This document shows, piece after piece, positions 5,147 through 63,582 of a stretch of 64,000 nucleotides of DNA (the first letter of the stretch is position 1; each line of letters starts with the position of its first letter). The notes beneath the pieces are model-generated. The model had not been told where the DNA came from and did not search any database. It saw only the letters and a list, made by a program, of their open reading frames with translations. The stretch covers positions 195,982,001-196,046,000 of the forward strand of contig OZ024743.1 of NCBI GenBank assembly GCA_964016885.1, given 5' to 3'. A program made the position numbers and the translations under genes. The stretch is from Eledone cirrhosa (taxonomy: Eukaryota).

Positions 5147-5241
5147 ACCCCGACGGCTGAGCTCAAGCCGTTTCGACGGCTAATTCTGTACTGAATGAAA
5201 AATCAGTTCTGGTATTTAAATAGCCGAACTTGTCAAGGGGC
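5147..5241 (-). ncRNA. Type I hammerhead, U3-A8 core (family A, copy 1)
   Basis: GCCCC-TTGACAA-stem II CGGCTA/TAGCCG-GAAA-CGGCT TGAGCTC AGCCG-TC-GGGGT; GUC triplet. Confidence 0.85.
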
Positions 5242-5571
5242 AATTCCATATATGGTCAAAGATATAATCACCAGGATTGATCATCCCACAAGGTAGTAGT
5301 AATTCAGCGATGGCAAGTTGGTGGGGGAGGTAGCCAAACCTGCCAGTAGGAGAAAAGGGGAGAGGGGGAGAGTAGACCCATTCATGCGTTGGTGGTGCCA
5401 GCTACAGCTGGGTGTGAGGTCAAAGAGGAGGCAGGGGAGGGGGAGTGGGAGGGGGAGGAGGTCAATACGGTAAGTAGAACGATGAAAATGTAAAACTGTA
5501 AAGGGTACTGAGAGAGAAAAGAAATATAAGCGGAATCTGGTTACTAGGAAATAGGCTGAAGAAATACATAA

Positions 5572-5806
5572 ATAAGTAAATAAGAAATACATAAAGAATA
5601 TTCCACATAAGTAAATAAGAAATACATGAATAATATTCCACATAAGTAAATAAGAAATACATAAGTAATATTCCACATAAGTAAATAAGAAATACGTAAA
5701 TAATATTCCACATAAGTAAATAAGAAAATATTCCACATAAGTAAATAAGAAATACATAAGTAATATTCCACATAAGTAAATAAGAAATACGTAAATAATA
5801 TTCCAC
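5572..5806. repeat. 35-bp minisatellite inside pLTR (second array at 8003-8177)
   Basis: Unit ATAAGTAAATAAGAAATAC-RTRARK-AATATTCCAC; 7 units here (one of 25 bp) versus 5 in the second pLTR. Confidence 0.9.
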
Positions 5807-6276
5807 AAGAAATACATAAGTGAGTAAATAAACAAATAAGTGAGTAAAAGGGTGGATAGATAGATTTAAAAAAAAAAATATATATATATATATATATATA
5901 TAATTTAGAATAAAAAGAATAAGAAAACAAATGATAATGATAGAAATAGAAACCTAGGTGTGACGGAGATAAAGGGACCCTTATGCGGGGTATAAGTGCG
6001 TGTATCGTGCGGTGACGGGTCAACAGAGGGGGGGTCGGAATACTACAGAGACCACCACGAAAAAAATAAATAAATAACGGTTTCTACCTCAAACACCGGG
6101 CCAGCAACCACCCAGTGCAAGAAAGTAGACTAGTACGAGAATGTAATTCAGGGTCCCGCAAAAAAGTACTGGTACTAACTCTAAGGGTACCGCCACGAAA
6201 CAAAATGTCTTATACAGGCTACAAGAAAAGTCGTACGAATTAAAAATAAAGAACGGAGTTTTTGTAGGAATCGGTT

Positions 6277-7533
6277 GTGTCTGGGTTTGAATTTAACAAC
6301 CGATTCCTACAAAAACTCCGTAGCAACTTAACAGAGTATGATAACACCAATGACATCATGGCGCATTCGGATAAAACTGGGAACCTATACTTTGTCAACC
6401 CAGACAGATACCACACACTGATCAGGAGCAGCCTAAACTCCACCTATAAAAAGGCCAACCACTCATGCCTCGAGGACATTAATCGAGATGGACAACAAAT
6501 TACATCTAGCCTTGGGGTCACCGACCGCACCGAACCCCTAGACCCACGGACACCCTACTTTACACTGAAGGACCACAAATCTGATTTCGACCGTAAACCA
6601 TCTATCAGGCTTATAAACTCAACAATGTCCGACATAGGAAGAATCAGCAAAAAAATCCTAGACCGCGTGATACCTGAAGTCAAGCAACACGCCCGACTTA
6701 GCCTATGGATTAACACCCAGGAAGTTGTCTCATGGTTCAGCAATTTGGAGGATAAACGAGACACTAAATTTATCCAGTTCGACATAGAGAGCTACTACGC
6801 TTCAATCACCTTACCGCTACTCACTGCCGCCTTGGACTTCGCCGAAGCACTTGTGCCCATCACCGACCAGGAAAGAAAAATCATCCTCCACGCCAGGAAG
6901 ACAGTCTTACTCTTTGACAACTCCAAATGGATAAAAAGAGCTCCCGACTCACCCTTCGACGTCAGCATGGGCGCTACCGACTCGGCGGAGGTCACATATC
7001 TTATAGGATTATTCCTGATAGTCAAACTCACCGATATGTTTCCGGCTTTTGGTGGTGGATTGTACCGTGATGATGGGCTCCTTACCCTTAAAGGGTTCAA
7101 CCCCAGTAGTACAGACCGGGTCCGTAAACAATTAATCAGCTTCTTCCGCGACTGGGGATTTAAAATAACCCTACAGACGTCCCTGACCCGAGTTAATTTC
7201 CTGGACGTTACCCTCGATCTCAACAATGACCTGTACTACCCATACAGGAAACCCAATGACAACCTGCACTACATCCACCGCCGATCTAACCATCCCAGGA
7301 ACATCACCAACAACCTGGTCAAAAACATCTCCCTCCGTATATCCCGTTTGTCAGCTAATGAGAGGATATTCGATGAACACGCGCCTTACTACAACCAGGC
7401 CCTCAAGCGGAGTGGTTTCCGGGAGGAAATATCCTACTGTCCAGCTCTCATCAGCGGAACCAGCAGGCGACACCGCCGCTCACGAAATGTAACATGGTTC
7501 AATCCTCCCCACAACGCCGAGGTGAATCCATGA
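6277..7533 (+). pseudogene. PLE reverse transcriptase fragment (open frame, inverted within element A)
   Basis: SDKTGNLY, LKDHK..RLIN, QFDIESYY, MGATDSAE, GLYRDDG, VNFLDVTLDL, SNHP, WFNPP. Confidence 0.93.
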
Positions 7534-7577
7534 GCCTAAAGAAAATTTTCCCATCGGGAAATATAGGAGTAAGTAAG

Positions 7578-7672
7578 ACCCCGACGGCTGAGCTCAAGCC
7601 GTTTCGACGGCTAATTCTGTACTGAATGAAAAATCAGTTCTGGTATTTAAATAGCCGAACTTGTCAAGGGGC
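7578..7672 (-). ncRNA. Type I hammerhead, U3-A8 core (family A, copy 2)
   Basis: Same sequence as 5147-5241. Confidence 0.85.
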
Positions 7673-61413: not shown

Positions 61414-61484
61414 TATTTTATCTGATGAGGACGTACTTACTGTTGAAGATAGCTCAGTACCTCTGAAATATGTATAATAAAATA
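61414..61484 (+). ncRNA. Type I hammerhead ribozyme
   Basis: TATTTTAT-CTGATGA-GGACGTACT..AGTACCTCT-GAAA-TATGTA-TA-ATAAAATA. Confidence 0.85.
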
Positions 61485-61964
61485 TACTTGATCACGCGAA
61501 TGTCTATATTTGTAAATATTTTGAATTAATAATTAATAACTCCGGAAAACCAAAATATGTGGAGTGCTTCTAATCTATTGTAAAACTTTATTCATTGATT
61601 TATTCATTGAACCTTTTTTAACCTTTAAATATATATATAATATATAAATGAAATATATATATATACGATATTACTAATATCGTAAACCTACTCCAGAAAC
61701 TGTTGGGTGCTTTTATATCAGTTATAAAATATTTACTCGTTGTAACCCAACAATCTTAAATAAAACTTTTGTATATATATATATATATATTTCATTTATA
61801 TATTATATATATATATATTATATATATATATATATATATATATATATATATATATATATATATATATATATATATATATTTATAAATATATATATATATA
61901 TAATATATATATATATAATATTCTTCTATATTATATTATATTATGCTATATTATATATATATAT

Positions 61965-63132
61965 GTTTAGTTTCCTCATAGTTACATGAGTTCCTTGTAA
62001 GCTTTTTTAGATGTTCATACTTTTATCTACTGAATTTGGAAACTTAATATTTCCAAACAAACTACATGGAAATCATACGGAAAACTATAATTTCAGAACC
62101 ACGAAATATTTTAATGAGGAACAGTTTCACCATATCACGTCATAGTAATGCTTAGAACGAGCATGAAAGTTTGACTTTCATGCTCGTTTCACTTTTACAT
62201 ATTACAATACATAAAAACAAACTTAAGGGCTAACTAATTTCTTTTAATATATTATATTATTACCATTAGAAAATATTTTGTAAACATATATATTTTTTGG
62301 TGTTAGATATTTTCTTCCTTAAACATTCTTTTCTTTTTCTTCTTTGCCTTCTGCGCTCATTTTTAAACAAACTATTTCCGTACACATATTACGCACACAT
62401 TATTACATTACATAAAAACAAATTTAAACCCTAACTAATTCCTCTAAATTCATAACTCATTCATTCTGCTCCTTCTTTTCACATTATATCCTTAATAACA
62501 TTAATATTTTTATTTTAATAATTTCTTTTCCTCGCACATTTTATTAAACCCTTCAATATACAAACCTTAATTTAATATTATTCTTAATTCCTTTTTCTCT
62601 TCATGCATAAACCTCATTAACTTTTAATTTCAAATTCTTTTAAATTATCTATTATCTTCCAACGGCTTTTTAACTTCTCTCTGTGAGACAATATATTTTT
62701 TTTTCTCAGTTGTAAAGGCTATCTCTCTCTCTCTATCACCCATCTCCCCTCCTCTCTCATCCTTATACTCCTCCCCCACCATTCTTTACTCTCATCTCCT
62801 CTTCTTCCTTCCCTTTTCCAGCCCCCTCTCACTTTTTCCCAATCTCATACATCAATCTTAAATTATTTTTCATATGTTGATTTAAAACTTCACTATTCAC
62901 AAGTGTTTTTTAAGCTTCATATGATGTATCCCTATTTTATCTGATGAGAACGCAGATATCATCCCATGATGATATTTGTTTTTGAAATGCGCATAATAAA
63001 ATACTTGGAACTATTTTAACCATCTTTTGATCTTATATTATTTATACTCCAGTCCTACAAACTGTAGAGTGCTACTTATCCGATATTTGCATTGCTTTAT
63101 TGTGCTACAATAAAACTCACCTCCTTCACACA
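61965..63132 (+). mobile_element. ORF-less PLE 3' UTR + HHR + tail (13-kb family)
   Basis: 62850-63132 aligns with 12930-13212; (TA)n flanks. Confidence 0.8.
62933..63003 (+). ncRNA. Type I hammerhead ribozyme (minimal)
   Basis: TATTTTAT-CTGATGA-stem II-GAAA-TGCGCA-TA-ATAAAATA. Confidence 0.88.
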
Positions 63133-63282
63133 TATATATATATATATATATATAAACATATATATATATATATATATATATATATATATATATATATACG
63201 TTATTCCGGGTTGAATCGGAGGTAACCACAGTAAGTAAGGTACTCAATACATTGCAGAGTATAAAAGTTTTAATATAGATGA

Positions 63283-63331
63283 GATTCTGCAGGACTAGAA
63301 CTGTTTCATTCTTTAGAAATCATCAGGAATC
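63283..63331 (-). ncRNA. Type I hammerhead with U16.1>C mutation
   Basis: GATTC-CTGATGA-TTTC TAAA GAAT-GAAA-CAG..CTG-CA-GAATC; element begins at about 63199. Confidence 0.6.
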
Positions 63332-63537
63332 TGGGTATCAAAAAATAAATATGGTATTTATAGATCTCTTCAGGTGGTAGGAGAGGGTGGAGAGTGGGAT
63401 GGGTGTAGGTCATTGGTTGATAGAAAAGGGAATTCATTAAAACCTAATTAGTCACATCAAAGTTCATTTTTGATTCAAACAGACATGTTGTTATTGTCAC
63501 CATACGCTATTGTTTTAAAGTAGACAGGGAGAGTACT

Positions 63538-63582
63538 GAGTTTTGACAAGTACCAATCAGTATGAAACAGCGCTGTCAACTT
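63538..63582 (+). ncRNA. Type I hammerhead, U3-A8 core
   Basis: GAGTT-TTGACAA-GTAC CAATCA GTAT-GAAA-CAGCGCTG-TC-AACTT; downstream sequence related to 52830-52955. Confidence 0.87.

What the first reader, a model, noticed from the sequence alone, without database searches (positions are those of the whole stretch)
5147..63582. Four families use a compensatory U3-A8 hammerhead core
Seen: cores read TTGACAA (5147, 7578, 9616), TTGAAAA (14377, 47482), TTGATAA (52586, 52782) and TTGACAA (63538) in place of CTGANGA. Each sits between intact stems I and II and is followed by GAAA..GUH. Known: C3-G8 is a Watson-Crick tertiary pair and U3-A8 is an uncommon tolerated covariation. Inference: the double change with different stems implies selection for activity, and standard CUGANGA searches would miss these. 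The 52.6 and 63.5 kb families are related, so there are at least three independent contexts.
Basis: partly seen in the sequence, partly recalled or inferred. Interest (0 to 1): 0.78.

Follow-up and report, generated by a model that had tools for sequence, protein, structure and literature searches.

The report
Retrotransposon hammerheads tolerate broken catalytic cores
The eight motifs are hammerhead-ribozyme-shaped RNAs in Penelope-type jumping genes with an already published U3-A8 core swap, but one of these lineages spread to about 1,660 copies with the pair mismatched and a sister family to about 4,200 copies with another core base changed, so fast self-cleavage is likely not essential for these elements to multiply.

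Summary
Observation confirmed: eight type I hammerhead motifs with U3-A8 (five on the minus strand). They sit in the terminal repeats of Penelope-like retroelements: a Hydra-clade element (family 1), a Neptune/Nematis-type element (family 2) and a non-coding ~318-nt unit (families 3/4). The two RTs are not one clade, so three independent contexts hold. U3-A8 in Penelope hammerheads is published (Cervera and de la Pena 2014). The compensation claim is only partly supported. In the 318-nt clan it holds: 93 of the first 100 listed copies are C3-G8 or U3-A8. Best reading: the fold is kept, but selection on cleavage speed is weak. No cleavage or expression data were obtained.

The parts
5147..5241 (-). 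Family 1 type I hammerhead, core UUGACAA (U3 at 5236), predicted cut after C at 5152
5060..6257 (-). Family 1 3' untranslated region with 35-bp tandem repeat, pseudo-LTR and ~90-nt tail ending at (TA)n
   Evidence: same layout in full-length L041
6268..7533 (+). Family 1 reverse transcriptase fragment (inverted piece of a Hydra-clade Penelope-like element)
   Evidence: 96.6% identical to the L041 ORF
7578..7672 (-). Family 1 hammerhead, second copy (U3 at 7667)
8759..9277 (-). Family 1 GIY-YIG-type endonuclease fragment with CxCx5C linker
9616..9710 (+). Family 1 hammerhead in the inverted pseudo-LTR 9262-9727 (U3 at 9621)
14377..14414 (-). Family 2 minimal hammerhead, core UUGAAAA, palindromic ACCGGU stem III, GUA site; 5'-truncated copy of a Neptune/Nematis-type element
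22644..22679 (-). Family 2b hammerhead-like motif, U3-A8 plus A13C (inverted copy; U3 at 22676)
22759..22794 (+).
47482..47519 (-). Family 2 hammerhead with one change in stem III; an inverted partial copy cut at the core follows at about 47558-47667
52586..52631 (-). Family 3 hammerhead, core UUGAUAA, in a ~318-nt non-coding retrozyme-like unit (52421-52940, inverted pair)
52782..52827 (+). Family 3 hammerhead, second (inverted) copy
63537..63583 (+). Family 4 hammerhead, core UUGACAA, palindromic ACAGCGCUGU stem III; relative of family 3
63832..64000 (-). Family 2 3' end, cut by the window edge inside the core (position 3 lies outside the window)

Best explanation
These motifs are type I hammerhead folds in the terminal repeats of three unrelated Penelope-like retroelement lineages, and they likely cut the element's precursor RNA slowly, under only weak selection on cleavage speed. 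Shown: location in pseudo-LTRs, the link to RT/GIY-YIG ORFs for families 1, 2 and 2b, a ~318-nt tandem non-coding unit for families 3/4, and the state of positions 3, 8 and 13 across copies. Inferred: read-through RNA from tandem or inverted copies folds the hammerhead, often as a dimer through the palindromic stem III, and cleaves at GUC/GUA to set the RNA's end. Because modest activity suffices, the 3-8 pair can drift through single mismatches. C3-G8 and U3-A8 are the two states that persist. C3·A8 was carried through three source subfamilies before returning to U3-A8, and A13C was fixed in another autonomous family.
For: Pseudo-LTR-ORF-pseudo-LTR layouts with a hammerhead in each repeat (L041, L034). 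Hydra diagnostics (RWR, DKT, CxCx5C, CxxC, CxH) in family 1 and GxKF, DKG, Cx4CxxC in family 2 (against PMC8557442 section 11). Family-1 clan: 4,745 matches, 1,663 C3·A8, 61 non-A at 8 of which 9 C3-G8 and 17 U3·G8. Age ladder by median divergence: 6.5, 5.6 (U3-A8); 5.2, 3.7, 3.1 (C3·A8); 2.1, 1.2, 1.9, 0.6% (U3-A8). C3 subfamilies as a side clade rejected, AU p=3.3e-5. ORF between subfamilies C and E: 24 synonymous, 5 non-synonymous in 227 codons. The fold stayed conserved meanwhile: from C to F, 1 change in 36 columns of the 3' half (it repairs stem III) against 9 in 37 columns inside stem II, Fisher p=0.014. Family 2b: 4,192 matches, A13C in 99 of the first 100, with ORF1 and RT about 45-55% identical to family 2. 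318-nt clan: 59 C-G, 34 U-A, 3 C·A, 3 U·G, 1 A·G in the first 100 of 1,085, with stem covariation. Low in vitro activity of Penelope hammerheads and dimer action are reported in PMC4209133.
Against: No cleavage, expression or read-end data were obtained. Conservation of the 3' half could reflect another role (promoter, RT binding, or the competing AGCCGU-CGAA-ACGGCU hairpin, which folds within 0.5 kcal/mol of the hammerhead). The return to U3-A8, the shared U3-A8 of families 2 and 2b across about 50% protein divergence, and the 93 of 100 paired states in the 318-nt clan all argue that selection on the pair is real. Subfamily groups were assigned by hand from diagnostic sites in 105 copies picked by pattern, not at random, and subfamily C's ORF rests on 5 alignments. 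In a type III hammerhead only the G3-C8 swap, not U3-A8, gave strong rescue (PMC9901934), so even U3-A8 may be slow.
Confidence: 0.58

Rival explanations
1. C3·A8 is not really broken. The core stays active through an alternative contact: a protonated A·C wobble, or a register slip in which C3 pairs with G7 and A9 becomes the extra base common in Penelope hammerheads. Selection for activity never lapsed.
For: C3 appears on the same branch as G7 (B to C), and 93 of the first 100 C3·A8 copies have G7. An unpaired base between 9 and 10.1 is typical of Penelope hammerheads (PMC4209133). The 3' half stayed conserved.
Against: Position 7 changed four times along the ladder, so coincidence is plausible, and G7 outlasted C3 (subfamilies F and G). 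No repeated family lacking position 7 was found in 1.4 Mb (2 single hits). It does not explain A13C in family 2b.
Confidence: 0.15
2. Strict compensation with rescue in trans. Cleavage is essential, and mismatched copies were cut by intact cores of older copies in mixed dimers formed through the palindromic stem III.
For: Stem III palindromes favour dimers in silico. Dimer action is reported. About 3,000 U3-A8 copies of the same clan exist, the lineage returned to U3-A8, and the 318-nt clan shows clean covariation.
Against: It needs steady co-expression of old copies through three subfamily generations. Family 2b has almost no intact partner of its own (1 of 100 with GAAA).
Confidence: 0.13
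3. In families 1, 2 and 2b the motif no longer acts as a ribozyme. It is kept as a structural or promoter element of the pseudo-LTR, and the core states are neutral passengers of successful source copies.
For: C3·A8 and A13C amplified to thousands of copies. Family 2b has only a 3-bp A-U stem I. Naiad elements proliferate without canonical hammerheads (PMC8557442). Family 1 has a competing hairpin that buries GAA.
Against: Apart from positions 3 and 7, no core base changed along the family-1 trunk (the 5' half was fixed by my patterns, the 3' half was not). U3-A8 was regained, and stems covary in the 318-nt clan.
Confidence: 0.14

Closest known systems
U3-A8 minimal hammerheads of Schistosoma mansoni Cercyon Penelope-like elements (Cervera and de la Pena 2014, PMC4209133; parts 1-2 of 4 read, supplement file 2 searched)
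   Same: Type I hammerhead in pseudo-LTRs, U3-A8 in place of C3-G8, palindromic stem III, mostly single or inverted truncated copies, coexisting with C3-G8 families.
   Different: Here U3-A8 occurs in three unrelated lineages of one genome, a mismatch state is dated on a trunk lineage, and an A13C family is amplified. The parts read report neither.
Hydra clade of C-terminal-endonuclease Penelope-like elements (Craig et al. 2021, PMC8557442; section 11 and passages read)
   Same: Single RT/GIY-YIG ORF, RW(K/R), DKT, CxCx5C linker, (TA)n targets, hammerhead in pseudo-LTR.
   Different: The paper describes canonical hammerheads and few families. Family 1 has U3-A8 or C3·A8 and a large stem II insert, with about 4,700 copies.
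Non-LTR retrozymes of animals (Cervera and de la Pena 2020, PMC7229834, passages read; bioRxiv 10.64898/2026.07.22.740005, part 1 of 5 read)
   Same: Non-coding unit of about 318 nt with one type I hammerhead, in short tandems, low GC.
   Different: Families 3/4 have a U3-A8 core and form short tandem-plus-inverted insertions in (TA)n like their Penelope neighbours. Circular RNA was not tested.
Natural U3-A8 core variants (Perreault et al. 2011, PMC3088659; passages read)
   Same: Same covariation, stated to be active in vitro.
   Different: Described as rare examples. Core mutants in repeats were set aside there as cryptic mutants, whereas here they are the majority state of amplifying subfamilies.

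Membership tests
Type I hammerhead ribozyme | Three stems around the core, open at stem I | tested here: met
   covariation in all three stems of the 318-nt clan. Stem I of family 2b has only 3 A-U pairs.
Type I hammerhead ribozyme | U4 G5 A6 A9, G12 A13 A14, A15.1-U16.1, H17 | tested here: met
   Met in families 1-4. Family 2b is treated in its own row.
Type I hammerhead ribozyme | A13 (family 2b) | tested here: not met
   A13C in 99 of the first 100 of 4,192 matches, so 2b is called hammerhead-like only.
Type I hammerhead ribozyme | Watson-Crick pair between positions 3 and 8 in the eight cited motifs | tested here: met
   U3-A8 in all eight.
Type I hammerhead ribozyme | Watson-Crick pair 3-8 in family-1 subfamilies C, D, E | tested here: not met
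   C3·A8 in 1,663 of 4,745 clan matches.
Type I hammerhead ribozyme | Site-specific self-cleavage | not testable with these tools
   Needs an in vitro assay; no RNA reads were obtained.
Type I hammerhead ribozyme | Rfam hammerhead model at gathering score | tested here: not met
   0 hits in the window, canonical copies included; 22.7 of 52 bits for family 3. The models do not cover these short forms.
Hydra clade Penelope-like element (family 1) | Single ORF, RT then C-terminal GIY-YIG, RWK and DKT motifs, CxCx5C linker, CxxC and CxH, no GxKF | tested here: met
   (RLRWR, DKT, CNCPDRSSC, CNLC, CKH, YIGLT). Pfam gave no hit on this ORF.
Hydra clade Penelope-like element (family 1) | Pseudo-LTRs with hammerhead and (TA)n insertion | tested here: met
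Hydra clade Penelope-like element (family 1) | Grouping with named Hydra reference proteins in a tree | not tested
   No reference proteins were fetched; the assignment rests on motifs.
Neptune/Nematis-type Penelope-like element (families 2, 2b) | GxKF, DKG, CX2-5CxxC linker, RT then GIY-YIG | tested here: met
   Pfam RVT_1 and GIY-YIG above cut-off; 2b homologous. Neptune versus Nematis was not resolved.
Non-LTR retrozyme (families 3/4) | Non-coding unit of 170-400 nt with one type I hammerhead, in tandem | tested here: met
   Direct spacing of 317-323 nt among listed matches and in L043-L047.
Non-LTR retrozyme (families 3/4) | Expressed as linear and circular monomer RNA | not tested
   No sequencing runs were obtained.

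The most novel reading that the evidence does not exclude
A Penelope-like lineage recorded a full compensatory round trip in its ribozyme's catalytic core (U3-A8, then C3·A8 through three active subfamilies, then U3-A8), and a sister family fixed A13C. Either these elements retrotranspose without a working hammerhead, or C3·A8 and A13C are active natural cores by an undescribed contact such as a C3-G7 register slip. Either way it is a dated natural allelic series for the open question of what Penelope hammerheads are for.
Probability: 0.4. Interest if true: 0.65.

Novelty: new variant of a known kind. Interest (0 to 1): 0.45.

Why it matters
Whether hammerhead cleavage is needed for Penelope retrotransposition is stated as unclear in PMC8557442. 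This genome offers source subfamilies of known order that differ at single core positions, with copy number as a record of success, so cleavage rate can be set against amplification. It also shows that descriptor searches fixed on CUGANGA and GAAA miss a large share: at least 17 copies with A8 against 96 C3-G8 hits in 1.4 Mb (the two counts use different methods). The U3-A8 swap itself is ordinary.

Tried and rejected
1. A U3·G8 family: two census hits (L143, L175) lie inside a LINE reading frame and their relatives lack the motif, so they are chance. 2. Near-fixation within families as proof of selection: family 2 has 16 copies changed at 3 and 10 at 8 of 6,538, as expected from mutation after insertion; no neutral site was counted for comparison. 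3. Naiad clade: rejected because the endonuclease is C-terminal. 4. An autonomous partner for families 3/4: RT fragments near L044, L047, L049 and window 52985 belong to other families, one with its own C3-G8 hammerhead; none was found. 5. Natural families lacking position 7: none repeated. 6. Rfam: only microRNA noise from TA repeats among the 150 rows shown of 204; a MALAT1 hit at E 3.9 is chance. 7. The tree had one row in the wrong frame and was rebuilt. 8. Dimer energies show only that the palindromes can pair. 9. Earlier scan findings: none. 10. Literature: searches returned no listing that describes an amplified C3·A8 or A13C family. Przybilski and Hammann 2007, Nelson and Uhlenbeck 2008 (two papers), Martick and Scott 2006 and Lunse et al. 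2017 were not held, so measured rates for C3·A8 and A13C were not seen, and Lunse 2017 may already list such variants. Supplement file 1 of PMC4209133 could not be searched and the bioRxiv supplements are closed.
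Full report
OBSERVATION. The window is 34% GC, rich in (TA)n, and lies at G000:C4:195982001-196046000 of a 3.0-Gb genome. A descriptor with positions 3 and 8 free finds all eight cited motifs as type I hammerheads with U3-A8. The cited coordinates are motif edges, and five motifs are on the minus strand. Seven C3-G8 hammerheads lie in the same window, and a further U3-A8 pair at 22762(+)/22676(-) was missed. Reversed controls gave 0 genome matches for each family pattern, and 6 against 111 for the descriptor in 140 evenly spaced 10-kb stretches.

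HOST ELEMENTS. Family 1 (5147-9710) is a rearranged Penelope-like element with RT at 6268-7533 and endonuclease at 8759-9277. L041 shows the full layout: repeat with hammerhead, one ORF of about 740 codons, 3' region, repeat with hammerhead. Its motifs match the Hydra clade description (against PMC8557442 section 11). Family 2 copies flank an ORF1 plus RT/GIY-YIG with GxKF, DKG and a Cx4CxxC linker, which is Neptune/Nematis type. Families 3 and 4 are a ~318-nt non-coding unit found in short tandems and inversions, like a non-LTR retrozyme; no autonomous partner was found. In a tree of 11 RT proteins from this genome, families 1 and 2 are separated by C3-G8-bearing families and are rejected as one clade (AU p=1.5e-6, with long branches present). 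Their hammerhead contexts share no detectable similarity. Three independent contexts therefore stand, unless the module was exchanged.

COUNTS AT 3 AND 8. Family 1, young form: 92 of 92 U3-A8. Family 2: 6,538 matches, 16 changed at 3 (9 C, 4 G, 3 A) and 10 at 8 (3 G, 4 C, 3 U), none C3-G8. Family 3: 494 matches, the 100 listed all U3-A8. Family 4: 10 of 10. These only show descent from a source copy. The informative cases are wider clans. The 318-nt clan has 1,085 matches; the first 100 listed, counted by eye, are 59 C3-G8, 34 U3-A8, 3 C3·A8, 3 U3·G8 and 1 A3·G8. An alignment of 11 chosen members has 97.7% of cells paired and double changes in 8 of 13 pairs, including 3-8 (relatedness inflates this). 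This is real compensation.

THE FAMILY-1 CLAN BREAKS THE RULE. A 21-nt pattern gives 4,745 matches. Of these 1,663 are C3·A8, 61 have another base at 8 (9 C3-G8, 17 U3·G8, 1 A3·G8, 34 C or U), and the remaining 3,021 have A8 without C3 (69 of 69 listed were U3). Among 105 complete copies from pattern-picked loci (107 collected, 2 dropped as truncated), nine subfamilies assigned by hand form a ladder. Median divergence from the subfamily majority falls from 6.5 and 5.6% (A, B; U3-A8) through 5.2, 3.7 and 3.1% (C, D, E; C3·A8) to 2.1, 1.2, 1.9 and 0.6% (F-I; U3-A8; I is the window's). With positions 3, 7 and 8 masked, at most 6 copies per group and 12 atypical copies dropped (53 rows), C+D+E as one side clade is rejected (AU p=3.3e-5). 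C3·A8 copies carry their own ORF, with 24 synonymous and 5 non-synonymous differences between C and E in 227 codons, so they were autonomous and active sources. From C to F the 3' half of the motif, which my patterns did not constrain, changed at 1 of 36 columns (repairing a stem III pair) against 9 changes in 37 columns inside stem II (Fisher p=0.014). The fold was kept while the 3-8 pair was mismatched.

A SECOND CORE CHANGE. Family 2b has 4,192 matches; of the first 100, 99 read GCAA at 12-15.1 (A13C) and 99 have U3-A8. Two loci carry ORF1 and RT about 45-55% identical to family 2, so it is a separate autonomous family. U3-A8 is shared by 2 and 2b and is therefore likely old in this clan. 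A13 is part of the consensus core (PMC3088659). That its substitution strongly slows cleavage is recalled, not read.

GENOME SHARE. In 1.4 Mb the descriptor (score 10 or more) found 96 C3-G8 (20 of them in two tandem arrays), 3 U3-A8, 2 C3·A8, 2 false U3·G8 and 8 other singles. Clan-specific patterns found 17 A8-type copies in the same stretches. A8 cores are thus a minority, roughly a tenth to a sixth. The window is enriched because each insertion leaves two or three copies.

MECHANISM. Established for Penelope elements: hammerheads in the repeats, low in vitro activity, and dimer action through palindromic stem III (PMC4209133; PMC6765202). All window families have such palindromes, and dimers are favourable in silico. 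I infer that they cut tandem or read-through transcripts at GUC/GUA and that slow cutting suffices. Paired states are then favoured over long times, but single mismatches can ride a successful source lineage. Rivals are hidden activity of C3·A8 (C3 arose with G7; no family lacking position 7 was found), rescue in trans within mixed dimers, and loss of catalysis with the structure kept for another role. Family 1 has the same CGGCU...AGCCG arms in stems II and III, giving a competing hairpin within 0.5 kcal/mol. None of these could be tested, and no RNA data were obtained.

PRIOR KNOWLEDGE. U3-A8 is published for natural hammerheads (PMC3088659, passages) and for Penelope elements, with about 1,300 hits in Schistosoma (PMC4209133). 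A pairwise mutagenesis of one type III hammerhead found strong rescue only for G3-C8 (PMC9901934, passages). Eight searches (listings only unless stated) showed no report of amplified C3·A8 or A13C families, but five key papers were not held.

VERDICT. The sequence observation is right and the swap is known. The notable result is the opposite of the one proposed: autonomous Penelope lineages amplified with non-consensus cores. New variant of a known kind, interest 0.45.

Noticed in passing
window 22644-22794 (inverted pair inside 22525-22913): Family 2b: U3-A8 plus A13C motif of an autonomous element with 4,192 matches in the genome.
   Followed up: yes
window 4051-4116(-), 13015-13085(+), 29659-29724(-), 56966-57045(-), 61301-61361(-), 61414-61484(+), 62933-63003(+): Seven C3-G8 type I hammerheads. 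The one at 29716 lies 1.5 kb downstream of a Hydra-type RT/endonuclease (31046-32423, minus).
   Followed up: partly
window 41482-43206(-) and 44655-47020(-): Two further Hydra-type Penelope ORFs with no hammerhead found nearby; a 73-75% identical relative (L033/L034) has a C3-G8 hammerhead.
   Followed up: partly
family-1 clan, core position 7: Position 7 changed four times along eight subfamily steps (A, C, G, U, C), more than most sites; it may tune the rate or be a mutation hot spot.
   Followed up: partly
window 9616-9710: Stems II and III share the arms CGGCU/AGCCG, so a hairpin can bury GAA. This stretch is invariant across all nine subfamilies and may act as a folding switch.
   Followed up: partly
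window 2919-3017, 21049-21178, 29508-29581, 55619-55755: Short family-1-clan copies truncated inside the hammerhead, holding only its 3' half and tail.
   Followed up: no
listing, e.g. G000:C1:47083734: A second set of U3-A8 copies in the 318-nt clan with a different stem II; it may be a second independent C3-G8 to U3-A8 switch.
   Followed up: no
L062:7983-9843 and L132:3338-9525: Tandem arrays of C3-G8 hammerheads with periods of 310 and 467 nt (retrozyme-like).
   Followed up: no
L089:130-190: A more distant relative of families 3/4 that also has a UUGAUAA core.
   Followed up: no
window 32645-32923(+), 52985-53536(-); L047:6621-9392: Fragments of a third Penelope-type family (924-codon open frame in L047) with its own C3-G8 hammerhead.
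   Followed up: partly
window 3161-3928, 21536-22618, 48816-51808, 57720-59959: Broken LINE-type ORFs; one gave a weak RVT_1 hit, the rest were judged by eye.
   Followed up: no
window 53987-55055(-): Broken ORF that looks like a DNA transposase (recalled likeness; no Pfam hit).
   Followed up: no
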